DNA from: Squalus acanthias
Lineage: Eukaryota
NCBI GenBank assembly: GCA_030390025.1
Contig: CM059435.1
Location: 89,218,001 to 89,282,000 of the forward strand
Reading direction: 5' to 3'
Length of the DNA stretch: 64,000 bases
The translations under genes were made by a program, and so were the position numbers. Under the pieces are notes generated by a model. That model was not told the origin of the DNA, searched no databases, and saw only the letters and a list, made by a program, of their open reading frames with translations. This document shows positions 1 through 60,740 of this stretch, piece by piece. The stretch's first letter is position 1, and each line of letters begins with the position of its first letter.

Positions 1-2012
1 GGGCTCCACCTTGGGGAGATAGGCGTCCACCTTGGACAGATTCATGGACTGAATAGACAGGGACTTTCAAGGAATTATTCATCTTCTGCACTCTGCTCTG
101 CCACAGATCAGTGGAAGTGATAAGCCCCAGTCCCACGGGAGTGGCAGTGGCGCAATGTGAACTGTATGTGTTGCCTTCTCAGGCTGTCAGCATGTCTGTT
201 CCTTCATCACCCCCTCAATGAATACCCGCCATGGTGCCAGCAAATCAGTCAGACAGCCCCGGCAGCAGCCGAGGTGCAGCAGTCAGCAGCCGGGCCCTCA
301 CAGGCTGGTCCACCTAGAAGTCAGTGGCCCTGAGCATCTCAAGGCTCCCATCAGGAGCAACAGCAGCCTTCCACCAACTTTGGTGAAGCCACTAATGGAG
401 CACCTCATAGGTGTAGTAGAGTTCTTATAAGAAAGGCACAGTGGGTTGACATTTGAGTGAGAAATTAATGGAAAGTAATTATTGTGTTGGGAATTGAATT
501 CATCACATTTGGCATTTTGGTCGGCCGTATGTTTTTAAAGCAGCTTCAGAGTCCACATTGTCAGTATGTCATTGATATAGACGTTGGCTGAATGGTTTCA
601 ATGTTTTTTAATGCAGGATTAAGGGAGTGGTGAAGGATGTAACTAGGACTGTTAATGCAGAGGGGCTTTGTGTTAGTTTTCAGGACAGGGGAATTAGCAG
701 GTCATCGGAATCGCTGAGCAATTAACTCATCCCTCGCATCTCTGGCTGTAAGGTGTTGAGGTGGCCCTCCTTCTTCTGCTGCTTTCTCACCTTCTCCCGA
801 TCTTCCTCATTTGGTGATGATTGCTGCTGCTTCTCTGCCTCCTTCAAATGCAGGTCTTTCTGTATTGCAAGGTTTTGCAGGAAGCAGCACACCACTATGA
901 TGTGAGCGACTCATTGTGGGGCATACTGTAGGGAGCCCATGACCTGTCCAGACATCTGAGCCTCTGCTGGTGTTCTCAATAATGATCCTGGTGGTCCGAT
1001 GGCATTGATTAAACCTGTGTTGCTCAGATGTGGTGGGGCTGCGGAGGGGTGTCATGAGCCATGTTTGTAGGGTGTATCCTTTGTCCCCCAGAAGCCACCG
1101 TGTCACGTTGGTGGAAGGTTTGAATATTTGGGGGATGGTTGAGTTCCACAGAGTAAATTCATCGTGACAGCTGCCTGGTTAGCTTACACAAATTTGCATG
1201 ATCCTATTTTGTTGATTGTTCAGCTCAATGGCAAAAGCAATGTACTGGTTAGTCCTGGTGAACAGGGCATTGGGTACTGCAAACTAGGAGATGTGGGTGA
1301 TGTCCCCTGTAGCAGACTGGAAGGAGCCAGTGGCAAAGAAGTTAAGGGCTGTAGTGACTGACAGCCATTGGTAAAGCATGGTTCCCTGGTTCACCAGGCA
1401 ACATGTCCTTTTGTTAGAGGTTGCAGAAGTCTGCAACAGCCTGCTTGGAGAAGTGCAGCCTCCTGATGCACTGCTTCACAGATAGATCCAAGAAAGTGAT
1501 TCTTGGCCTGTACATCCTGTGTGCTGCTGGTGGTGCTGGTTGCTGAGGCTGCGCCTGCTAATCTTCTTCCCCCAACTGGTGCTCCATCCAAATGAAATTG
1601 GTAATAATAACCAGATAAAGCTTACTGAGGGTAAGCAAGACAACAAAAGTGAGAAAGAAGCAATCTGGAAGCTAAAAACTCCCCTGGCAATCCAAACAAC
1701 ATAATGGCACACAGATCCTTTTACCAAATTACCTGCAAGTAAGCACCCCTTTAAATACTGCTTCAGTGGCTCTGAGGGACCAATCCCAGTTGGTTTTACG
1801 GGCAGGTTGGGTATTGGGTGAATTTCCATGAGTTTGTGTAAAATGGTGTTGGGGTCCTAATTGTGTCATAGGACCCCAATTTGCATGAATTTATAAGGGC
1901 CTCGTCTGCCTTGGGTGGGCGCCTCGGCCGACTCTGAAATCTTCCTTAAGCTCCACATGCATGATTGCTTGGTGTTTTGCCATGGAGACAACATATTTGA
2001 GAATTTCAATGC
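1..2012. mobile_element. Decayed PIF/Harbinger element, truncated by the window start (Myb-like C-terminal relic on +, transposase relic on -)
   Basis: Minus-strand peptide WLLGDKGYTLQTWLMTPLRSPTTSEQHRFNQCHRTTRIIIEN (807-1106) and upstream ALNFFATGSFQS-like sequence near 1300-1350. Region 170-420 resembles the Myb-gene 3' end at 4480-4740. Right boundary approximate. Confidence 0.8.
700..1590 (-). pseudogene. HARBI1-like Harbinger transposase pseudogene
   Basis: GDKGY motif and R..IE motif; frameshifts and deletions. Confidence 0.8.
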
Positions 2013-2918: not shown

Positions 2919-4785
2919 ATGGCAGATCAACGGCCCAGGGAGCGAGCTCACAGATTCTGGGACCAAGCATCGGAGGCGTTGGTCTTCACTGTGGAGAGAC
3001 GGAGGGCGGTGCTCTACCCGGCAAGTGGCAGGAGGCCCTCGCCACAAGTCTTCCGCGCCATGTGGAGGGAGGTTGCCCAACAGGTCTCGGGCAGCACTGT
3101 GGTCCCCAGGACCCACACACAGTGCAGGAAGAAATTTAACAACCTCACTCGGGTGGTCAGGGTGAGTCAATGCTTCAACAAATGCTACATACCACCATCT
3201 GAACCTCAGTCTGCACACGCTGCCCAAAGAACCACACCCACCAAAAATCTCCACCTAGCATACATTCACACCCACATCTCACACTTTGCCACAATTACAG
3301 CTATTTAACTATGGTAGGCACATCTCCCAAACACCTTGCTCCACACTCATTCACACACTTTCCTCTCTCTTGCAGGCCAAGGTCGCTCACAAGAGAGGGA
3401 GCAGGAGTGCACAGGCAGGGGACAAGCCGACACCCAACCACTGTCTGAGCTGGAGGAAAGAGTGCTGCAGATCATTGGGCGCCAGGTGGTGGGCGCCGTG
3501 GCCACTGGCGACGTTGACCCCCTTGGGGAAACAATAGGTATGGTCATCCCTACTCCTTCTTCTCACATCCCACTTCCCTCTCACCCCACAAGCCTTTCCC
3601 ACTTTCCAGCTAATCATGCTGTATGCATGCATTTCTCCCTTCCTGCCCCCTCCCCTCACCTTAACCCGTCTCTTGGGCCTTTAATCTTTCAGATAATGAG
3701 CAAACAGCTGAGCAGCCTGTCCCTGAGAGTACCATAGAGAGCGAGATGGGAGAAGAGGAGGAGGAAGAACACATCGCGTCACTGCATGTCTCACCTGCAG
3801 GCACCAGCTCAGATACTGGCACTACACATTCTTTAGAGGCTAGTATAGCAGCGGGATCTGCAAAGGGTGATGCACCGGGGGTGAGCGGGCTGCAGCAAGG
3901 CCGGGGGTGAAAGGATAGCTTGGGAGTCAGCTCCCCGGAGGGCGAGTTCTGCTGCACAGGACTCAGATGAGGACCTTGATGAGGAGGCCTTTAGAAGAAG
4001 GGTGATGGGCATTCACACGGAGATGATAGATGCAATGGCAAGGGTGCCCTGAGAGCCTCTCAGCAATGGTAAGGAGCATGGAGGAGTCCGCCTCAACATT
4101 GCACAGAGCTCTGTGCACACCATGGAGCCAATCATTTGTAGTCTGCAAAGGATGGTGGACTCCCAGAGAGATCATGGCGACCCAGACCTCATGCCTCGTG
4201 TGATGGGCGATGTCACAGCTTCCATTGCAGCACAGGTGGAAGCCACGCAACATCTTAGTGCTGTAATGCAGTCTATGCTTGGTGGCATCCAATCTCAGAC
4301 TGCTCTCATGCAGTCTCAGCTTGATGCCACGCAAGCTATGACTGCTGCCATTGTGGCTGGGTCAACCACCGTCCACCGGGGCTTTCACGGTGTCGCAGCA
4401 GGCCAGCAATCTGTGCTCCTGCAGATTGGCAGTGATGCTGAGGTGCTGCCCCGGGGGAGTGGCAGTGGGTCAGTGGAGCAGGAAGCTGCTGTCTTCTCTC
4501 AGTAGGACAGCATTCCTGCTCCCACCACTAGCACTTCGCCATTGCCCTTGTCGCTGCCTGTCATCCAGCCAGCCCAGACTGCTGCCGTCCATGCTGAGGT
4601 GGTGCAGTCTACAGCCGGGCCTTCCAGGCACAGAGTCCTGCAAGGGCATCAGAAGTCTCCTGCACGGACACTCAGCAGCCTTCCACCCGCCGTGCTGTAG
4701 CCACTGGGCCAACACTTCGTAGGTGCACTAGAGTAGGCAAAGGCACTATAACGAGGGGCACTAAGGGACTGCACAAGGGTGAATA
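2919..4785 (+). pseudogene. Harbinger Myb/SANT-like DNA-binding protein gene, 3 exons (2919-3161, 3376-3537, 3693-~4785), disrupted
   Basis: MADQRPRERAHRFWDQASEALV..W.EVA..V......RT..QCRKKFNNL trihelix motif; GT-AG introns (gtgagt 3162, tgcag 3375; gtatgg 3538, ttcag 3692); frameshifts and stops in exons 2 and 3. Confidence 0.88.
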
Positions 4786-4950
4786 GTTAATATTGTTCTT
4801 GTAAATATGTGTTCACTGATTATTGATAAATTTATAATTGGCTTTGGATGATTTTGTGGTGTCTCTCATTTCAGCTTTGCGCTGTGATATGGCCTGCGAC
4901 AGGGAGGGAATGATGGGGATGCGGTGAGCTATGGGGATCTGGGGTTTAAT

Positions 4951-6123
4951 TTATTGGAATCGCAGTCTGATGAGGTGGTCACAGACCGCCCTTCAGAAGG
5001 CCGATTGAGTGGCTGCCTCCTCCCTCGCTCTTGTTCCTCCTCCTCCTCCTCCTCCTCCTCTTCCTCTTCCTCCTTGTCCTCCTCCTCCTCTCCCTCCTCC
5101 TGAGGTGGTCCCGCAATCCCTGGTGGCAAGGGCTGGGCCCTCATGATGGCCAAGTTGTGGAGCATGCAGCAGACCACGACGAAATGGGACACCTGCTCCG
5201 GCGAGTACTGGAGGGCTCTTCCCAAGCGGTCAAAGCAGCAGAACCGTTGCTTGAGCACCCCGATGGTATGCTCGATGATGTTCCTGGCAGCAGCCTGGCT
5301 CTCATTATATGAGTGCTGAGCAGGAGTGCTGGGGTTGGGTGGGGAGTCATGAGCCAGGTGGAGAGCGGATAGCCCTTGTCTCTGACCAGCCAGCCGTGAG
5401 CTTGATGTGGCGGTTGGAAGAGTGCTGGCACCGGTCTGGCGCAGGATAAAGGCATTGTGGATAGCAGGCATTCACATTGAGGATTCGCTGTCTGTGGTCG
5501 CACACCAACTGCACATTAAGTGAGTGGTAGCCTTTGCTGTTACGGAAGACCTCAGGATTGTTACGTGGTGCGCGCAAAGCCACCTGGGTGCGGTCAATGG
5601 CGCCCTGCACCATGGGGAAGCCCACTATCCGGGCAAAGCCACATGTACATTCGTCCTGCTTCTTTCTGGTGATGGGGAAGGAAATGTAGTCCCTTCTCCT
5701 ACTGTAGAGAGCCTCTGTGACCTCCCGGATGCAGCGATGGACGGCGAACTGCGAGATGTTCACTATATCTCCTGTTGCAGACTGGAAGGAACCACTGGCG
5801 AAGAAATTGAGGGCGACGGTAACCTTGAGTGCCACTGAGAGAGCCGTGGTTGACCTGATCTGAGGCTCGAGGTCTGGTTGCAGGAGGTGGCAGAGATCGG
5901 TGACCACATCCATGCTGAAACGGAGCCTTCTAATGCACTGCTCCTCACTCAATTGGAGATAGGAGAATTGCTCTCGGAATACCCTCGGAGGGTAAGGCCT
6001 CCTGTTGAGAGCCCTGATGGCCCGCCTCCTCCCTCTGGCCACATCTTGCAATCTTTCTCGCTGCCTCCCCTCCGTCCACAGCAGATCCTGGAGGGCGAGG
6101 GCGACTGCCAGTACAGCCCCCAT
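4951..6123 (-). pseudogene. HARBI1-like DDE transposase, frameshifted
   Basis: ORFs 5347-6144, 5141-5503 and 4929-5471 contain [60 protein letters not shown] and an acidic tail; a deletion removes GSS of the GSSHD motif near 5460. Confidence 0.93.
5033..5100. repeat. (CCT)n-rich microsatellite encoding the poly-Glu tail of the transposase
   Basis: tcctcctcctcc... run seen directly. Confidence 0.9.
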
Positions 6124-7746: not shown

Positions 7747-8490
7747 GGGCCGAAAATTGATCCCGGGACACGAGAGTACGCACTGCGTACTCTCGCGTAT
7801 TCCCACTCCAATTGCCGGTTTTCTGCATGCCCTGCGCATGCGCTGAAAACCGGCAATTGCTCTTCTGAAAAGGGGGCGGGTCCTCGGTGCATCGCGTGCG
7901 CGCTACAGGCTGCGCGCACGCTGTGCACTTCATGCTTTGGACGCGCAGGTAAGTACGGAAGATTTTGGAAATGTAAAAAGGAGGAGTAAGACCCGCTTTT
8001 AAGAAGGTAAGTAGTGAATGAAGTATTTTTTTGAATTTTTTTTTACAGGTATATCTTTTTTAGAGACTTTAAAGACAGGTAAGTTTATTTTTATAACTTT
8101 TTAAAAGATTTTAAATTTTTTCAAAAATTTAATTTTTTATTTAAAATGGTTAATTTAATTAACTATACTTATTTTATTAATGTGATGGGTTTTTTTTTAA
8201 ATTTAATTGAGGTTTAGCTGTTATTTTGGGGGGGAGTAAGATTCATAGATTTCACAGCCGTGCTGTGAAACTTATGAATGGAAGATGGTGTGCTGCCATT
8301 GGCTCTAACTGAGTCACGTGATCCCACAGCTCGCACGAATTCACTACGCCGCTGGGATACGCAAGCACTGCCCAGCTGATCTCTAGAACATGAAGTTCGT
8401 GCGAGCTGGATCTGAAAAAGCACAAGCGAGGTGAGAGATCGCGGGAAAGCCTTACCCCCGCGGGAACAGAGCGAGATCAATTTCTGGGCC
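7747..8490 (+). mobile_element. Harbinger-type MITE, family A
   Basis: TIRs GGGCCGAAAATTG / CAATTTCTGGGCC, TSD TAT/TAT; homologous to 50387-51139 and 53807-54576. Confidence 0.9.
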
Positions 8491-8971: not shown

Positions 8972-9712
8972 GGCCTGGAATTTGAGCTCCTAATGATGGC
9001 GAAATGGCAGTGTTTGCTGTCATTTCGCCTTTGAAACTGACCGCAACTTCAGGATGTAGCGTGTGTGCAGCCTAATGCGGAAATCCTGAAGTTGCGGTCT
9101 GTCATTCACTGCTCCTCCACAGGCTGCACTGAGCACCCCACCCCCACCACAGAGCCGGCAATCAGTGAAATCTCTCAAATCATGGAAACGGACGAAAATT
9201 TTGGCTTTTCCGCAGTAATTACGCTGTTAAATACCCCATTAAAAGTTAGACCCTTTTAGATTAGGTGCAACTGGGGTTTTAACAGCGTATTGACAAAGGT
9301 TATGGCCCTGAAAAACTAATTTTAATTTTGTGCAGTAAAAATTAAAATTTATAAGAAACTTGAAAACATTTAAATTAAAAAAAAGTGTTCACCTTTATTT
9401 CAGGTTTGCCTTTTCCCCATGTGAGAGCCCAAATCTTTGTCTAGCTCTCGCTAACATTTTTAAAAAGTTAGAATTTTAGGAGCTTACCCATTTCCTGTCT
9501 GTGAGAATTCTGCATTTTGGTTGGCTGCTTAGACAGCTTGTTGACGTCACAGCAGCTCTTTGCTGAGAATCCCCATTAACTTCCGTTGATTTCAACTACA
9601 CGTTGGAAAACCCGAAATTCCCGACACAGAGATCGTGAGGTCTTTGTATGACGCTTACTTCGGGGCCAACGGCGAACGCCTTTGCTTCGCCGCTGATCGC
9701 AAATTCCGGGCC
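8972..9712 (+). mobile_element. Harbinger-type MITE, family B
   Basis: TIRs GGCCTGGAATTTG / CAAATTCCGGGCC, flanks TTT/ATT; internal palindrome gcaacttc..gaagttgc shared with 52593-53742. Confidence 0.85.
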
Positions 9713-11918: not shown

Positions 11919-13028
11919 ATGGGGGCTCTACTTTCAGTCCCCCTCGCGCTTGAGTATCTTTGGCAGAAGGAGCACAGGCAGCGAAGAAGAGGAGAAAATG
12001 CACGCAGAGAGAGGAGGAAGAGGGCCAGGAGGCCTTACTCACCTAGGGTCTTCCAAGAGCACTTCTCTTATATCCACTTAAACGAGGAGCAGTGTAATAG
12101 GAGGCTCCGCTTCACCAAGGAGGTGGTTGCAGAACTCTGCCACCTCCTACAACCAGACCTGCAGCCTCAGAGCAGGGCGACCACGGCTCTCCCAGTGGCC
12201 CTCAAGGTCACTGTGGCGCTCTTCGCCAGTGGATCCTTCCAGCCTGCAGCAGGAGATATAGCTAACATCTCACATTTTGCTGTCCATTGCTGCATCCGGG
12301 AGGTCACAGAGGCTCTCTACATCAGGAGAAGGGACTACGTTGTCTTCTCTCTGAACTGAGAGAAGCAGGAGAAGCGCGCATGTGCCAGGATAGCGGGCTT
12401 CCCCATGGTGCAGGGCTTCATCGACTGCACCCACGTGGCTTTGCGGCAGCCGCATACTAATCCTGAGATCTCCCATAATCACAAAGGCTACCACTCACTT
12501 AATGTGCCATTGTTGTGCGACCATGTCCAGCGCATCCTGATGGTCACTGCCCGCTATCCTGGCAGCAGTCATGATGCCTTCAGCCTGCGTCAGTCCGGTG
12601 TGCCAGCAATCTTTCAGCCATCACGTCAAACCCGAGAGTGGCTGCTCAGAGACAAGGTCTATCTGCTCTGCACCTGGCTGATGACTCCCCTCCGCAACCC
12701 CAACACTCCTGCCACGCGTTCATATAATGAGAGCCATGCTGCCACCAGGAACATCATCGAGCAGACCATTGGGCTGCTGAAGCAACGGTTCTGCTACCTT
12801 GACCGCTGGGGAGGAGCCCTCCAGTACTTGGCAGAGCAGGTGTCCCATTTCATGTGGTCTGCTGCATGCTTCATAATTTGGCCATCAAGAGGGCCGCAGT
12901 CCATGCCAGCAGGGATTGCGGGACCACCTCAGGAAGAGGACAAGGGAGAGGAGGAGGACGAGGAGGAAGGGAGGAGGCAGGCAGCAAATCCCCCTTCTAA
13001 ACGCCTCATCAGACTCCGATTCGAGTGA
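11919..13028 (+). pseudogene. HARBI1-like DDE transposase, disrupted
   Basis: ORFs 11868-12359 and 12405-13028: MGALLSVPLAL.., [47 protein letters not shown], acidic tail; stop/indel near 12357-12400. Confidence 0.93.
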
Positions 13029-13176
13029 ATGAAACACCAGATCCCTGTTGCTTACCACATCCTCATCATACCATTCCTCTGTCATGGAATATTACAGTAT
13101 CCTCCTGGGCACAAAGCTGAAATGAGAGCCACCACAAAACACACATTCCAAACAAAATTAATACATTTATAAGTAT

Positions 13177-15078
13177 TCAATTAACAGTACAATATGCACC
13201 CTTGTGCAATCCCTTAATGCCTGTCGTTTGTGTGCCCTTTCCTACTCTGGTGCTCCTACGCAGTGCTCCCCCAGTGGCTGCAGCATGACTGGTGAAAGGC
13301 TGCTGAGTTTCTGTCGGGATGACTACAGATGGCCTTGCACGATGACCTCGACCAGCTGTGGACCTAGAAGGCCCGGCTGTAGTCTGCACCACCTCGGCAT
13401 GGACGGCAGCAGTCTGGGCTGGCTGGCTGACAGGCAGCAGGAAGGGCAATGGCAGAGTGGCAGTGGTGAGAGTAGGAATGCTGTCATCCTGAGAGAGGAC
13501 AGCAGGTTCCTGCTCCACAGACCCACTGTCACTCCCCCGGGACAGCGCCTCAGCATTCCTAGCAATCTGTTGGGAGGATAGATTGCTGGCCGGCTGCGAA
13601 ACCCTGTAAAGCCCCTTTCGAGACTTGTAAACCCAGCCACGATGGCAGCAGTTTGAACTTCCACTGCAGCAGTGAGACATTAGGTCACTTCCGCTTGTGT
13701 TGCAATGGAAGCTGCGACCTCGCCCATCACACACAACATCATGGCTTGGTCCACAAGGTCTCTCCTGGAGTTGTCCTCCATTTCCACCCTGGAAACCATG
13801 GGCTCCAAGCTCTGCGCAAAGCCCCATCCAATGTTGGAGCCAGACTCCTCCATGCTCCTTGACACTGACAAGAGGCTCTCTGGCAGGCTTGCCATTACAC
13901 TTAGGATTTCTGTGTGCATGCCCATCACCCTTCTTCTGAAGGCCGCCCCATCAAGGTCATCATCTGAGTCGTGTGCAGAACTCGTGTGTGAACTCGCCCT
14001 CCGGGGAGCTGGCCCCTGAGCTACCCTTTCCCTCTGGCCTTGCTGCAGCCCACTCGTGCCTGGTGCCTCACCATGTGCAGATCCCGCATCTATACTACCC
14101 TCTACATTCCACACAGTGCCAGTTTCTGAGCTGGTGTCTGCGAGTGTCAGATGCAGTGACTGTGTGCCTCCTTCTTCATCGCCACTCTCCTCCATGATCT
14201 CGGGGACAGGCTGTGCTGGTGGCAGTTCTTGGTCACCTGAAAGCAGAAAGGCACAAGAGTCGGGTTGTGGTGAGGGGAAGTGGGGGAAGCAAGATATCCG
14301 TGCATACACCATCAGCAGCTTGTAAGTGAGAAGAGATTCTGGGATGAAGGGGAAGTGGGATGTGAGAAGGAGGATTAGGAATGACCATACCGTTATTGTC
14401 CCCAAGGGCTTCAACTTTGCCCGTTGCCACGGCCTCGGTGACTTCCCCTCCAATGATGTCAAGCACCGTCTCCTCCAGTTGGCTCTTGGCCTGTAAAGCG
14501 GCTTGGCCGCCACCCGTCTGCCGCTGCTCGTGGCGTATGTGAGCCACCTTGGCCTGCAAGAGAAAGGGAAGTGTGTCAGTGAGTGTGGTGCAATGTGTTT
14601 GGGTGATGTGCCTGCCATAGATGAATAGCTGTCATTGTGTGCAAGTTGTGAGATGTGGGTGTGAGTATTGCAGCAGTGGTAAGGTTGTAAGGGTAATGTG
14701 AAGCTATGATTGTGAGGTATGAGTGGTGATAGGTAGAGATTGTTGGTGGTGAGTGATGGGGTGTGGTGCATGAGCAGTGTGTGAGACTTGTGGTGCAGAG
14801 GATGGGATATGGCATTTGCTGACGCCTTCACTCACCTTGACCTGCTGTGTGAAGTCATTAAACTTCTTGCGGCACTGGATCCATGTCCACAGTACGACAC
14901 TGTTTGCCATGACGTACCCGGCTATCTCTTGCCACAGCCTTCTCGAAGTGTGCTTTGATGGCTTTCTGCCACCCTGCGGGAACAGGACAAAATGCCTTCT
15001 CTCCACTGCCACTACCAATGCCTCGAGAGCCACATCGGAGAACCTTCTGGCTCATTCCCTGTGCTGTTGCTAAGCCAT
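13177..15078 (-). pseudogene. Harbinger Myb/SANT-like gene, 3 exons (15078-14836, 14553-14391, 14236-~13177), disrupted
   Basis: RFSDVALEALVVAVERR..LWQEIA..V..W.QCRKKFNDF; splice sites at the same positions as in element 1; premature stops at codons 3 and 9. Confidence 0.88.
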
Positions 15079-28759: not shown

Positions 28760-29330
28760 GTAGCGACCCACGTATCCATGGGGAGTATGCGGTTCACAAG
28801 TGCCCCTAGGATCACGTGGGCTGGTCCAACCAATCAAAGAAGGGAATCCCCATTCATGCTTTAGGCGATTCCGTATGTACGAAAACCTCCAGAAGCATGA
28901 ATGGGGATGACATAAAAAATACATATAACATTAGAAATAATTTTTTTTAATTACATATTTAAAATACAATATAATTAAACATTTAAAACAAAAATTAATT
29001 TTTTGAAAAATAAATTTAAATGTTTTAAATGGGCTCAAAATAACCTTACCTTATTGTATATGTGTTTTAATGTTTAAATGAATGAAATTTTTTTTTAAAA
29101 GTTTTTTAAAACTCTTACGCTGGTAAAAGCAGACCTTAGACCAGGCGTAAGAATTTCATGGGCATTCGCTGGGCAAATAGCCCAACTCTCCGCCTGCGGA
29201 GGCCCTTTTCTCGGGGATGGCTACGATCTGTCAGATCGCAAGTTCCGTGTTTTAGCGCATGCACTTCGTGTGCATAAACCTGGAACTTGCGCGGCCCCTA
29301 CGCACCCGTGGGGGCCGCAAATTACGGCCC
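28760..29330 (-). mobile_element. Harbinger-type MITE family A, inverted and truncated at one end
   Basis: Reverse complement of the 50900-51000 block; TIR caaattacggccc ending at 29330. Confidence 0.8.
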
Positions 29331-31645: not shown

Positions 31646-32179
31646 TCATCCCTACATGCTCTTACCCACTTACCAGTGTCTACAGACTAAGATCATCTTA
31701 TTTAGACTTTTCTGACCATCAGTGGCTCAGAAGGCTGTACTTCTCCCAGAGCTAATTGGAGAAATTTATCAAATGCTGTTTGAAAATCTGCAGCTCACTT
31801 CCATTCGGAGAACAGCATTTTCTGTATCAGTCAAGGTCACGACCGCCTTGAATTTCTTTGCATCTAGGCAACATCAGGTGACCTTTGCCACATTAGTCAG
31901 ACAGCTGCTTACCATTGTATCAAGAAGGACACTGATGTTATATTCAGGCGGGCTGGGTAATTCATATCCTTCCCAATGGAAGCAGACAAACGAAGAGAGA
32001 GGACTATCTATTTCTACAAATTGGCACGGTTCCCACTGGTGCAGGGAGCAATTAACACAACACACTTATTTAGAGGGTGAATATTGGAAGGTTATAGGAT
32101 TACTACTAGTTACAGGTAGGATATCTGGGCGTTACAACTATTACTACCAGTTACATATAGACTATCAGTAAGTTATTGT

Positions 32180-45859: not shown

Positions 45860-46110
45860 GGAGAACTTTTATGGCACCGGCCATTTCAGGCAGTCACAGG
45901 TGATCTCTGTAATATCAGTTAGGGTGCCATGTGTGCATATATACATCAGGTGACTGACACACTTTCAGGAGAACTGGGGAATTAATAGTTGGAATCACAA
46001 CAAACCAGCAGCAAGATAAAGCCATCCAGTTTTGCAGGGTTGCTGGCTTTCCTAAGCTCCAGGGGGCAATAGATGGCGCTCATGTTGCTATGCAAACTCC
46101 AACGGTTAAT
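45860..46110 (+). pseudogene. Harbinger transposase relic (not in the ORF track)
   Basis: Hand translation FQAVTGDLCNIS..QVTD..AIQFCRVAGFPKLQGAIDGAHVAMQTP. Confidence 0.8.
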
Positions 46111-46123
46111 CCACACTGCTTTC

Positions 46124-46395
46124 TTATTTAGGGCTTGGGGGGCGGTAGCCAACTAATATTTTAAAGGAGAGGCGAGAGGGGTGGTACAAGGTGAGGTGCT
46201 TGAAGGAGGATAAAGTACCAGAGTAGTAGAGAGAGAGATCAAGGGGTGATTTGGTGATAAAGGTGACACCGCCACCATGACGGTTTGGGTGGCAGGTGGT
46301 GTAAGTTATAGCTAGGTGTGAAGGCTTCAATAAGGGGCAAGGTGTCACTGCCCATGAGTCAAGTTTCAGTCAAAGCCAGGATGTCAATGCAAACA
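46124..46395 (-). mobile_element. L2/CR1-type endonuclease-domain fragment
   Basis: IDILALTET, R..GGGV.., YRPP motifs of the APE domain. Confidence 0.7.
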
Positions 46396-48028: not shown

Positions 48029-49121
48029 TATTTCCACTGAGAAGGAAATGAACTTTTTGTCTGCTTAAATAGAACAACATTGGCTTACATAATGATGAGG
48101 TGCTGCCTGACTATTTTCCAAAGATGCTGTCTGGAAGGTTCCATTAGCAAAGCAAGTTCTGAATTTGACCGGTACAGACAATGCTGCTCTCCTGGTAGAA
48201 GTGGGTTGCAGGTCTTCATTGCTCAACAGCATTTCACTCAGCGAGCACCTCATAGAAGTAGTATAATAGGAGCTACAGCAAGTATGTTAGCTGGTACAAA
48301 AGGTAGACGCAGTGTTGTAGATGGTGTGTATGGATTTGTTGGCAGCTTTTGGTGAGTGTTGTTCTGGAAGTAAACATGGCTTTTCAGAAAATAATCTTTT
48401 GGGAGACAGTGTATGAATAATTTGCGATATGCTATGTGGTAAGTATAGCATGCTTGGGAGGAAAAAGGTGACTTTGGATCTATGGTTCCCAAAGCGCTCC
48501 ACCATTGGGGGTTTCCTCATGCCATTTCTGGGTCTGTTGTAGACCAATTGATAGAGATTTATTGCTATGATTATTCAACAACTCCATTATCATTGTGTCA
48601 TGCAACTACCAGGATGGTAGAAGGCGAACTAGATGGACCTTGGTTTTTTCTCATCTAGCAATTTTTATGTTCACGGAGAGTTCAGGGTTCATTTCTGTGT
48701 ATGCTTGCAACTTTTTGGAATTGGATGATGGCAAGGGAAATTTAGATAGCTTTCTGGGTACTGGGCAGGATCAGATGATTGGCATTGCACATCAGTTGAG
48801 CATTAATTGAATGAAAACATTTTTCTGTTCATGAAATTGAAGAGGTTCTCATATGAGCCTTTGAATGTCACTTGCTCCTTGCACCTGTGGGAATCCTGTA
48901 GAATTGGATAGCTCACTTTCTTTGTTTCTATATTTCCACTAAGAAGGAATTGAACTGTCTGGCCTGCTAAAATGGAACATATTGCCTTATATAATGATGA
49001 GGTGCTGCCTGACTATTTTGGCAAAGATGCTGTCTGGAAGGTTCCATTTGCAAAGAAAGTGCTGAATTTGACCGGTACAGACAATACCGCTCTCCTGGTA
49101 GAAGTGGGTTGCAGGTCTTCA
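48029..49121 (-). pseudogene. Harbinger transposase relics, with a ~190-bp segment present twice (48029-48218, 48931-49121)
   Basis: EDLQPTSTRRAALSVPVK..FANGTFQTAS; GFPQVQGASD near 48865-48900. Confidence 0.75.
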
Positions 49122-49644
49122 ACCAGCCGTAGACATATCACAACAACTGCCTCCAGGGAAGAGCCCAGTATTCTAAGGAAGAAATGTGCAGAAAATTGTA
49201 AGTAACACCTTCCTGAATGGGTAGATACTTGCAGGGAATAAAGATTTGTTGTGATGCCTCATGTGTTAGCCACCCCTTATAGATTTTATTTAAATATGAT
49301 CTGTTGAAAGTTTTTTTTAGGTTCCCTTCAGCTTAAGCAGTGAGAATTACATTCTTTTGATCCCTCACCAACAGAATCATTTATTTAAAAAAGTGAATTT
49401 TCACAAAACACGTTTTGTCTGAAGATTGTATCACTATGATACTTCAGTCTGGATCTTGTGCTATTTTATCACAGAACAATTCGCGTGTTCATATCAAATT
49501 CCTGTCGTAATTTTAACGGATGAATTAACTCAATTTAAAGTAGCATGCTAAGTATTCATAAGATATCACACAGTTTTATTTCCTGGAATCCTTGAATTTA
49601 CACTATGCAATACCTTATGAAGGTTTACAAGCTCTGTGCTTTCA

Positions 49645-50386: not shown

Positions 50387-51139
50387 GGCCCGTATTTTCC
50401 GATGCCTACGGGTGTGTACAAGCTGTGTACACACCTGTAGGGACCTCGCAAGTGCTGGTTTCAGGCATGCGAAGCGCATGCGCTGAAAACCGGCATTTCT
50501 GATCTGTCAAGAATCCTCTTGACAGATCGGACGCCTGCCCTGGAGAAGGGCCTCTGCGGGTGGAGAGTTCCGCTTTCTGCAGAACCTCCGCCCGCTGAAA
50601 ACCCTTAGAACTCTTACGCCTGGTAAAAGCAGGGGTATGGCCTGCTTTTACCAGCATAAGAGTTTAAAAAAAAAAATTTTTTTCACTCATTTATAATTTA
50701 AAAATACTTTTAAAAAAGGTAAGTTTATTTTTAGCCCCGTAAAAAACTTTAATTATTTCTTTCAAAAAATTAAATTTTTGTTCAAAATATTTAATTTAAT
50801 GTAATTTTAACTCATTTTAAAAACATGATGGTTTTTTAAAACGTATTTAATGTTTTAGTGTCTTTTTGGGGTGATCTCCATTCATACTTTTGACAGGTCT
50901 ATCTGTCAAAAGTATGAAGGGAGATTCCCTTCTTTCATTGGCTCGCCTGGCCCACGTGATCCCAGGGACACTTGCGAACCGCCTGCACCCCTGGGATACG
51001 TGGGCCCTGCGCATTTCGACTGTGGAGAGGCCCAGCATCGGAAGTGTCCGGACCTCGGGAGCCCTCAGGTAAGGGCGTAGATTTTTTTCCGCTAGGAGGC
51101 ATCCGCACGCAGGAAGCCTCCTATCGGAAATTACAGGCC
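50387..51139 (+). mobile_element. Harbinger-type MITE, family A
   Basis: TIRs GGCCCGTATTTTCCGAT / ATCGGAAATTACAGGCC, flanks ATA/ATT. Confidence 0.88.
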
Positions 51140-53806: not shown

Positions 53807-54576
53807 GGGCCAGAAATTCGGGTCTCCACGGGTGAGTACGCGCTGTGTACTCACCCGTAGACCCAACGAAAGTGCCGGTTTCGCGCATGCACTGCGCATG
53901 CGCTGGAAACCGGAACTTCCGTTCCCCTGAAGGAAGGGGTTCAGAGGTCGAACGCGTGCGCCGGAGAGGCAGCGCGTAGACCTCGAACTTCGTTTTTTTT
54001 TCAGGTTTCTCCATGAGGGTAAGTACGGAGAAGCTGCGCGGGGAAAAAGGAGGCGCAAGGCCTGCTTTTAACAAGGTAAGTGGTGAATTAAGTACAATTT
54101 AAACATTTTTTCAACAGGTTTATCTTTTTTACATACTTTAAAGAAAGGTAAGTTTATTTTTAGCACTGTTAAAAAGTGTAATTAATTTTTTCAAAAATTT
54201 AAATTTTTGTTTAAAGTAGTTAATTTATGTAATTGTAATTTATAGTTATTTTAAAAATGTGATTTAAAAAAAAAATTTATTTGAAGTTTTAGTGAGGTTT
54301 TGGGGCCGATCTCTATTCATTGATTTGACAGGTCTTCCTGTCAAATCTATGAATGAAGATTCCCTGCTCCGATTGGCTCTCCATGGCCCACGTGATCCCA
54401 GGGGACGCTTCGAACTAACTGCGCCCCTGGGATACGCAAGCACTGCGTGCCGGCAGCTGCAGGAGGCCCAGGAACCGAATTCCACGCGGGCCCTGAAGCA
54501 CAACGGCAGGCGCGGTATGTAAGTACGCGCGCAATTCTTGCACCCGCGGGAAGCCGGAGAGCCGAATTTCTGGCCC
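53807..54576 (+). mobile_element. Harbinger-type MITE family A, young copy
   Basis: Perfect 15-bp TIR GGGCCAGAAATTCGG, TSD AAT/AAT, CpG-rich. Confidence 0.95.
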
Positions 54577-60364: not shown

Positions 60365-60740
60365 TCACATGATGAAATCATCATGACAGCTTCCTGGGCA
60401 TTGGACATTCACATGAAGGATATTATAATTGGCATCACACACTAGCTGCACATTAATGGAATGAATGCCTTTTCTATTCATAAAATTGAGAGGCTTCTCA
60501 TATGGAGTTGTGAGTGTCACGTGCGTTCCAGCAATTGTTCCTTGCACCTGTAGGAACACTGCCATTGTGTAGCTGGGGATAGCTCTCGTTGTTTCTCTGG
60601 TTCCATTTGAAAGAATATGAAGTGCATGGCCTGTCTGAAGAGATCATCAATCACTTTCTTTATGCTGTGTTGAACAGCTGCCTGACTAATGTGGCAAAGG
60701 TCTTCTGTGAAGCTCAATGCAAGAGCCTCCGATCCAGCTT
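60365..60740 (-). pseudogene. Harbinger transposase relic
   Basis: DLCHISQAAV..VQGTIAGTHV..FMNRKGIHSINVQLVCDA..V.CPGSCHDDFI. Confidence 0.85.

What the first reader, a model, noticed from the sequence alone, without database searches (positions are those of the whole stretch)
53807..54576. Harbinger MITE family carrying a promoter-plus-splice-donor cassette
Seen: copies at 7747-8490, 50387-51139, 53807-54576 and inverted 28760-29330 share a left arm with GCGCATGCGC (NRF1 consensus), plus a GC box (7871) or CGGAA motifs. Downstream lies a same-strand cluster of GGTAAGT consensus 5' splice sites (7949, 8006, 8079; 54019, 54075, 54147; 50719), then an AT-rich core, then ATTGG and CACGTG in the right arm. 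The donors persist between clearly diverged copies of a non-coding element. Inference: the MITE could act as a mobile CpG-island promoter with a first exon, as a U1-binding module that suppresses premature polyadenylation in its AT-rich core, or it could retain the 5' UTR exon of its autonomous parent.
Basis: partly seen in the sequence, partly recalled or inferred. Interest (0 to 1): 0.7.

Follow-up and report, generated by a model that had tools for sequence, protein, structure and literature searches.

The report
Harbinger mini-transposon donating a splice site
This abundant non-coding jumping element keeps the front end of its full-length parent's transposase gene, and in one likely-RNA data set an element of this family is spliced onto the coding exon of a host G0S2/HILPDA-like gene, likely as an occasional side effect rather than a selected host function.

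Summary
The element is real: a ~760-bp non-autonomous Harbinger-like (PHIS) transposon. The four window copies belong to four different, abundant lineages. Bases 1-257 and 667-770 match the ends of a 4.7-kb two-gene parent (transposase + Myb), and donor 1 sits on the parent's own donor upstream of the transposase ORF. In likely-RNA contigs the parent splices a GT..AG 5'UTR intron from a nearby donor. One contig runs from MITE donor 1 exactly into the acceptor of a G0S2/HILPDA-like coding exon, 0.5 kb downstream of a sense-oriented copy. So the donor can be used. Selection on it is not shown: 100 unselected copies decay at ~1%, like flanking bases; donors 1-2 are missing from half the sampled lineages; intronic copies lean antisense 17:10 (p=0.25). 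A start site inside the MITE was not shown. The scan noted this family many times on other DNA of this genome; the notes I saw reported no splice into a host gene.

The parts
53807..54576 (+). Non-autonomous Harbinger-like element, family A (15-bp TIRs GGGCCAGAAATTCGG; AAT duplicated on both sides)
   Evidence: 40 of 40 scored candidates are near full length at 94-100%; 1442 A-clade sites match exact anchors
53807..54063 (+). Left arm inherited from the autonomous parent's transposase-side end (CpG-rich, promoter-like)
   Evidence: 81-83% to L091/L092 upstream of the transposase ORF; CpG o/e 1.21
53870..53920 (.). Subterminal palindrome holding GCGCATGCGC (53894-53903) and CCGGAA (53910)
   Evidence: DNA fold z -9.2 for 53807-53930, which also holds a second hairpin; present in parents
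54018..54024 (+). Donor 1 (G|GTAAGT); homologous to the parent's donor at about +214; used in one contig of a related copy
   Evidence: loose end at 54018 in run X2 maps to an acceptor at G000 C10
54075..54081 (+). Donor 2; A/B clade only; a GTAAGA variant spread in 23 of 100 listed copies
54147..54153 (+). Donor 3; shared by nearly all lineages, inside a longer conserved AT block
   Evidence: rank 17 of 757 7-mers in a 16-row alignment; neighbouring TTATTTT and TTCAAAA score higher
54085..54300 (.). AT-rich core (17% GC), no clear match in the parents tested
54309..54400 (.). Right-arm hairpin, ATTGG (54372) and CACGTG (54389); origin not found
54473..54576 (+). Right end inherited from the parent's Myb-side end
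   Evidence: 92% to L091 4781-4883
7747..8490 (+). Family B copy (youngest, 99% copies), three donors, flanks TAT|TAT
50387..51139 (+). Family C copy (90-93% copies), donor 3 only
28760..29330 (-). Older C-clade copy, right end missing, no exact donor

Best explanation
This is a non-autonomous Harbinger-like transposon that keeps both ends of a two-gene parent, likely moves with the parent's transposase and Myb protein, and carries the parent's CpG-rich, promoter-like transposase leader with a working splice donor that a host gene can pick up when a copy lands sense in an intron. The donors are inherited or lineage-acquired cargo copied by transposition bursts. After insertion they decay like neighbouring bases. 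Use by host transcripts is occasional, as at the G0S2/HILPDA-like locus, where the spliced RNA likely starts either in the MITE or at the native promoter ~0.6 kb upstream. Shown: ends, parent, donor 1 homology, one junction, decay rate. Inferred: mobilisation in trans, promoter activity, rarity of use.
For: Parent L091:212-4883 has the same TIR, a DDE_Tnp_4 ORF on + and a Myb_DNA-bind_5 ORF on -. MITE 1-257 is 81% and 667-770 is 92% identical to its ends, with donor 1 aligned base for base. GTAAG stands at that place in 11 of 12 parents. Parent RNA-like contigs skip ~416 nt from a GAG|GTAAGT to an AG 23 nt before the transposase ATG (exact GT..AG in X2; near-identical skips in X1, X2 and X5). 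A loose end at exactly 54018 in X2 matches once in the genome, 30 of 30 letters, right after a TTTATAG acceptor. A full sense copy (89%) lies 0.5 kb upstream, giving a 1056-nt GT..AG intron, and the exon holds a PF15103 ORF over the cut-off. Neutral decay: by-eye count on the 100 listed of 1442 copies gave 13 substitutions in 1300-1400 donor bases against 18 in 1800 flanking bases, Fisher p 0.86-1.0.
Against: In the best-hit samples (29 copies per family) donors had 5 substitutions against 10.8 expected, p=0.043, and ATTGG 0 against 4.6, p=0.010 (8 motifs tested, uncorrected, samples picked by likeness to the query). Donor 3 is among the best-kept 7-mers between lineages. The middle of the MITE, with donors 2-3, ATTGG and CACGTG, has no identified source. 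No parent joint from the donor-1 position was listed (2 joints not shown). The runs are only guessed to be RNA, are contigs, and may come from related organisms; only 24 of 262 loose ends were shown, so frequency of use is unknown.
Confidence: 0.72

Rival explanations
1. Mobile promoter-plus-first-exon cassette: the left arm is an active CpG promoter in many copies and routinely supplies alternative first exons to host genes.
For: One exact donor-to-host-acceptor junction. The arm is the parent's transposase upstream region, CpG o/e 1.2. Between the native donor and MITE donor 1 my strict pattern found only one acceptor, 14 nt before the donor, so an internal exon long enough to be laid is unlikely.
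Against: No start site mapped. A native promoter-like stretch and donor lie 439 nt upstream of that copy, so an extended native exon 1 explains the junction equally well. One junction in three RNA-like runs among the 18 loose ends shown for them; no joints inside the MITE were listed for those runs. Donors decay like flanks.
Confidence: 0.15
2. The conserved blocks, donor 3 and the palindromes included, are kept because they help the element transpose (binding sites for its Myb protein or DNA shape); the splice look of donors 2-3 is incidental.
For: Donor 3 sits in a longer block whose AT neighbours are as well kept. Donor 2 aligns with the mirror arm of a hairpin in the C clade. Internal sequences alter mPing mobility (PMC9921582, passages). 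This fits conservation between lineages with neutral decay within them, and it is compatible with the best explanation.
Against: No binding data. Donors are one-strand and not repeated at both ends. A/B lineages keep acceptor-like tracts before donors 1 and 3 as well, which looks like exon structure.
Confidence: 0.3
3. U1-binding module that protects host introns from premature polyadenylation in the AT-rich core.
For: Three perfect same-strand donors precede an AT-rich core in A and B.
Against: It predicts sense tolerance and kept donors. Intronic elements are 10 sense to 17 antisense, donor-rich ones 4 to 10 (not significant). C-clade families spread with one donor. Decay is neutral.
Confidence: 0.04

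Closest known systems
Tourist-like MITEs of PIF/Harbinger elements, e.g. rice mPing/Ping/Pong (PMC4561436, part 1 of 5 read; PMC9921582 and PMC11254759, passages)
   Same: Short non-coding element with parent's TIRs, 3-bp target duplication, two-protein parent, burst amplification; flanking triplet can be carried from the donor site.
   Different: About 750 bp, AWT rather than TWA target, keeps a vertebrate CpG-rich leader with splice donors; the middle part has no identified parent.
PHIS superfamily groups PIF/Harbinger and Pangu (Han et al. 2015, PMC4482050; passages and sections 5-6 read)
   Same: DDE transposase plus Myb/SANT ORF, G-starting short TIRs, ~4.7 kb parent (as PIF/Harbinger); ANT-type TSD (as Pangu).
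   Different: Fails the TWA criterion of PIF/Harbinger in the strict sense and has a Myb ORF, which Pangu is described as lacking; it fits neither group fully.
Harbinger-Snek of sea kraits (PMC8437027, passages)
   Same: Large vertebrate Harbinger expansion with short non-autonomous variants, some contributing to host mRNAs.
   Different: [quoted passage not shown]
TE-gene chimeric transcripts by exonisation or promoter hijacking (review PMC13690279, passages)
   Same: TE supplies a splice donor, perhaps a promoter, joined to a host exon.
   Different: The examples in the passages seen are mostly LTR/LINE elements; here a DNA-transposon MITE, and promoter use is unproven.

Membership tests
Non-autonomous PHIS (Harbinger-like) element / MITE | Terminal inverted repeats shared with an autonomous element | tested here: met
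   GGGCCAGAAATTCGG at both ends of family A and of L091
Non-autonomous PHIS (Harbinger-like) element / MITE | 3-bp target duplication | tested here: met
   Paralogous empty sites lack 3 nt in the clearest cases (A_L005, A_L011, A_L029, A_L030); 24 of 90 copies had any spanning hit, many too diverged to read
Non-autonomous PHIS (Harbinger-like) element / MITE | Short, high copy, uniform length, no transposase or Myb coding | tested here: met
   744-763 bp majority lengths; 1442 anchor matches for the A clade; parent proteins give no tblastn hit inside the four copies
Non-autonomous PHIS (Harbinger-like) element / MITE | Parent with DDE transposase and Myb/SANT protein | tested here: met
   PF13359 E 7.6e-43 and PF13873 E 6.7e-14 on opposite strands of L091
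PIF/Harbinger group in the strict sense (Han 2015) | TWA target duplication | tested here: not met
   Right flank is ANT in 70 of 90 copies, left in 67 of 90; TWA is not the pattern
Pangu group (Han 2015) | ANT target duplication | tested here: met
   definition
Pangu group (Han 2015) | Second ORF without known motif | tested here: not met
   Second ORF carries Myb/SANT; no transposase tree was built
TE-derived alternative promoter / first exon | TE donor spliced to a host exon | tested here: met
   One contig in one run guessed to be RNA
TE-derived alternative promoter / first exon | Transcription starts inside the TE | not testable with these tools
   Only contigs were served; they cannot show starts
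Exapted (selected) regulatory cassette | Motifs decay more slowly than neighbouring bases after insertion | tested here: not met
   Unselected sample: 13/1300-1400 vs 18/1800; a biased best-hit sample gave p=0.043
Exapted (selected) regulatory cassette | Orientation bias in introns | tested here: inconclusive
   10 sense vs 17 antisense in 1.2 Mb, p=0.25

The most novel reading that the evidence does not exclude
A recent burst of many thousand Harbinger MITEs has scattered a ready-made CpG promoter plus first-exon donor through this genome and already supplies new 5' exons to host genes, a G0S2/HILPDA-like lipolysis regulator among them: an LTR-style promoter rewiring done by a DNA-transposon MITE in a vertebrate.
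Probability: 0.15. Interest if true: 0.75.

Novelty: new member of a known kind. Interest (0 to 1): 0.45.

Why it matters
It explains why a non-coding repeat looks like the start of a gene: it keeps its parent's transposase leader. It also gives a named, testable locus where such a donor is joined to a host coding exon. If many of the thousands of young copies do this, a DNA transposon would be reshaping 5' UTRs and promoter use in a slowly evolving vertebrate genome. On present evidence it is ordinary TE exonisation at one locus. I found no paper on these elements in four full-text searches; most subscription papers and repeat libraries were not searchable.

Tried and rejected
No run on record as RNA was listed; the runs laid are guessed RNA and contigs only. 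No joints inside the MITE were listed for X1, X2 or X5 (absence proves nothing). A parent for the MITE middle was sought in 20 transposase loci by BLAST, nhmmer and shuffled-control alignment and not found. The idea of no TSD (Spy-like blunt insertion in a 6-bp target) was rejected by empty sites. A 14-nt microexon as source of the C10 junction was judged unlikely, as 14 letters would hardly be laid, but is not excluded. No host exon was recognised by eye among the window's unique ORFs; they were not scanned against Pfam, so the window's own copies have no gene orientation. The replicate intron interval held only one donor-less fragment; the 2:11 split in the three neurexin-like genes is post hoc. 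A homologue search for the G0S2-like ORF found nothing and the Atlas gave no result. The paper on Harbinger3_DR Myb binding was not held and a search for it found nothing; that point rests on recall.

Full report
Observation. GGTAAGT occurs 13 times in the window against 5.9 +/- 2.4 in shuffles, seven times in these elements, all on their + strand. GCGCATGCGC is exact in three copies and has one mismatch in the inverted one. The names NRF1, ETS, GC box, CRE, CCAAT and E-box are recalled, not tool results. The 50387 copy has only the third donor and the inverted copy has none exact, so 'the donors persist' holds for the A/B pair only.

Families. The window lies in a 3.7-Gb genome; that it is a shark comes from earlier notes and was not tested by me. 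Three of the four copies were used as queries and each heads its own family: the best 40 hits are 94-96% (A), 99% (B) and 90-93% (C) identical, with 4841, 2214 and 8839 first-look candidates. An exact two-anchor pattern finds 1442 A-clade sites. Flanks are mostly AAT or ATT. Paralogous empty sites show a 3-nt duplication in the clearest cases; 24 of 90 copies had a spanning hit.

Parent. PF13359 gave 63,886 candidates. Twenty loci were extended. L091:212-4883 has the same TIRs as family A, a transposase ORF on + and a Myb/SANT ORF on -. MITE bases 1-257 match its left end at 81% and 667-770 its right end at 92%. Donor 1 aligns on the parent's GGGTAAGT; GTAAG is at that place in 11 of 12 parents, a perfect donor in 2 of 12. 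The GCGCATGCGC and CCGGAA motifs lie in a subterminal palindrome shared with the parents. The middle of the MITE (donors 2-3, AT core, ATTGG, CACGTG) has no clear match in five parents tested with shuffles (best z 3.3 of 15 against the left end; 3.7 for the right arm of A against the right end). Its source is unexplained.

RNA, parent. No run on record as RNA was listed; eight are guessed RNA, all kept as contigs. Laid on L092:300-2300, X2 shows a joint 665-1082 with GT..AG ends (depth 25.8, one contig), and X1, X2 and X5 show near-identical skips. With this is an intron from GAG|GTAAGT at about +369 to an AG 23 nt before the transposase ATG: a 5' UTR intron. The donor used is the parent's second, not the one homologous to MITE donor 1. 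No DNA run was laid there as control.

RNA, MITE. Laid on window 53900-54260, run X2 has one contig whose loose end (255 letters listed) begins right after 54018, the last exonic base of donor 1. Its first 30 letters match once in the genome without mismatch at C10:95353863-95353892, minus strand, directly after a TTTATAG acceptor. A full family-A copy (89%) lies in the same orientation 0.5 kb upstream; the implied intron is 1056 nt. The exon holds an ORF matching G0-G1_switch_2 at 30.5 bits (cut-off 27) and HILPDA weakly. Upstream of the MITE lies a CpG-rich stretch with GC box, TGACGTCA and ATTGG and a donor 439 nt before the MITE, so the copy likely sits in intron 1. That the contig's MITE side comes from this copy is inferred. 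Whether the RNA starts in the MITE or extends native exon 1 cannot be told. Only 24 of 262 loose ends were shown, 18 of them for the RNA-like runs.

Selection on donors. In best-hit samples (29 copies per family, query copy dropped, shared variants dropped) donors had 5 substitutions against 10.8 expected (p=0.043), ATTGG 0 against 4.6 (p=0.010); five of the other six motifs were at background and CACGTGATCC had p=0.058. The 100 listed of 1442 anchor matches are unselected for the donor bases. Counted by eye they carry 9 substitutions in donor 1 and 4 private ones in donor 2, against 18 in 1800 bases of an adjacent CpG-free 18-mer (Fisher p 0.86-1.0). A further 23 rows share GTAAGA at donor 2, a variant that spread. 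Between lineages (3 majorities + 13 incidental copies) donors 1 and 2 are confined to the 8 A/B rows, and donor 3 ranks 17 of 757 inside a longer conserved AT block.

Orientation. Five large LamG-domain genes were located and 1.2 Mb of presumed intron read. Twenty-nine profile hits, merged to 27 elements, were 10 sense and 17 antisense (p=0.25); those with two or more donors 4 to 10 (p=0.18). Two retrotransposon controls split 46:52 and 26:22. The test is weak; its lean, if real, would mean sense donors are mildly harmful, not protective.

Mechanism and rivals. Most likely the element is moved in trans and copies its parent's transposase leader around the genome. Conservation between lineages reflects descent from source copies, and perhaps a role in transposition (internal sequences alter mPing mobility; PMC9921582, passages). 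Host use is incidental but real at one locus. The mobile-promoter reading stays open at about 15%; the U1-protection reading is unlikely.

Known kinds. It works like a Tourist-type MITE (PMC4561436, part 1 of 5). By Han et al. (PMC4482050, sections 5-6) it is PHIS but fits neither strict PIF/Harbinger (TWA not met) nor Pangu (has Myb). TE-donated donors and promoters are well known (PMC13690279, passages), and Harbinger-Snek contributes to host mRNAs (PMC8437027, passages). PMC9179366 (passages) reports no Harbinger in elephant shark and asks for other cartilaginous fish to be checked. No supplements were read. Earlier notes of this scan describe the same family on other DNA and, in the lines shown, report no evidence of use in host genes.

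Verdict. A new member of a known kind, with one concrete exonisation event worth following; interest 0.45.

Noticed in passing
Flanks of 90 copies (L001-L060, L111-L140): The two flanking triplets are identical in only 42 of 90 copies; in 22 only the middle base differs (AAT|ATT type). At readable empty sites one triplet equals the target and the other is foreign (A_L030, A_L005, A_L011). This fits carry-over of the donor-site flank reported for mPing (PMC11254759, passages).
   Followed up: partly
G000 C10:95353.5-95355.8 kb, minus strand (L141, L143): G0S2/HILPDA-like two-exon gene with a family-A MITE in its presumed first intron and a second Harbinger-like or LINE-like repeat block upstream of the promoter.
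   Followed up: yes
L091 element positions ~4390-4560 (right end): The parent's Myb gene has its own minus-strand promoter-like region (GC boxes, TGACGTCA) and a CATG|GTAAGT donor; the MITE keeps only the last ~100 bp of this end.
   Followed up: partly
MITE families A and B versus parents L091 and L104/L107: The ends of A and B match different parent subfamilies (A: L091; B 1-112: 92% to L104/L107) while their middles resemble each other and no parent, as if one MITE core swaps or converts its ends.
   Followed up: no
L033 1258-2386: A family-B copy is nested inside a C-clade copy of the same MITE group.
   Followed up: no
window 830-1521, 2940-6120, 12036-15042, 31749-32068, 45922-46125, 49028-49255, 60368-60583: Several other decayed Harbinger transposase and Myb fragments (31-58% to L091 proteins) and another TIR element at 8972-9712 without donors.
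   Followed up: no
Run X9 (organism C) on window 54043-54260: The MITE core has very deep contig cover in a likely-DNA run of another organism while 53991-54042 has almost none, so the core is older and more widespread than the family-A arm.
   Followed up: no
window 54002-54018 and 54112-54147: Acceptor-like tracts precede donors 1 and 3 in most A/B-clade rows, outlining possible 14-nt and 30-nt microexons; no RNA joint for them was listed.
   Followed up: partly
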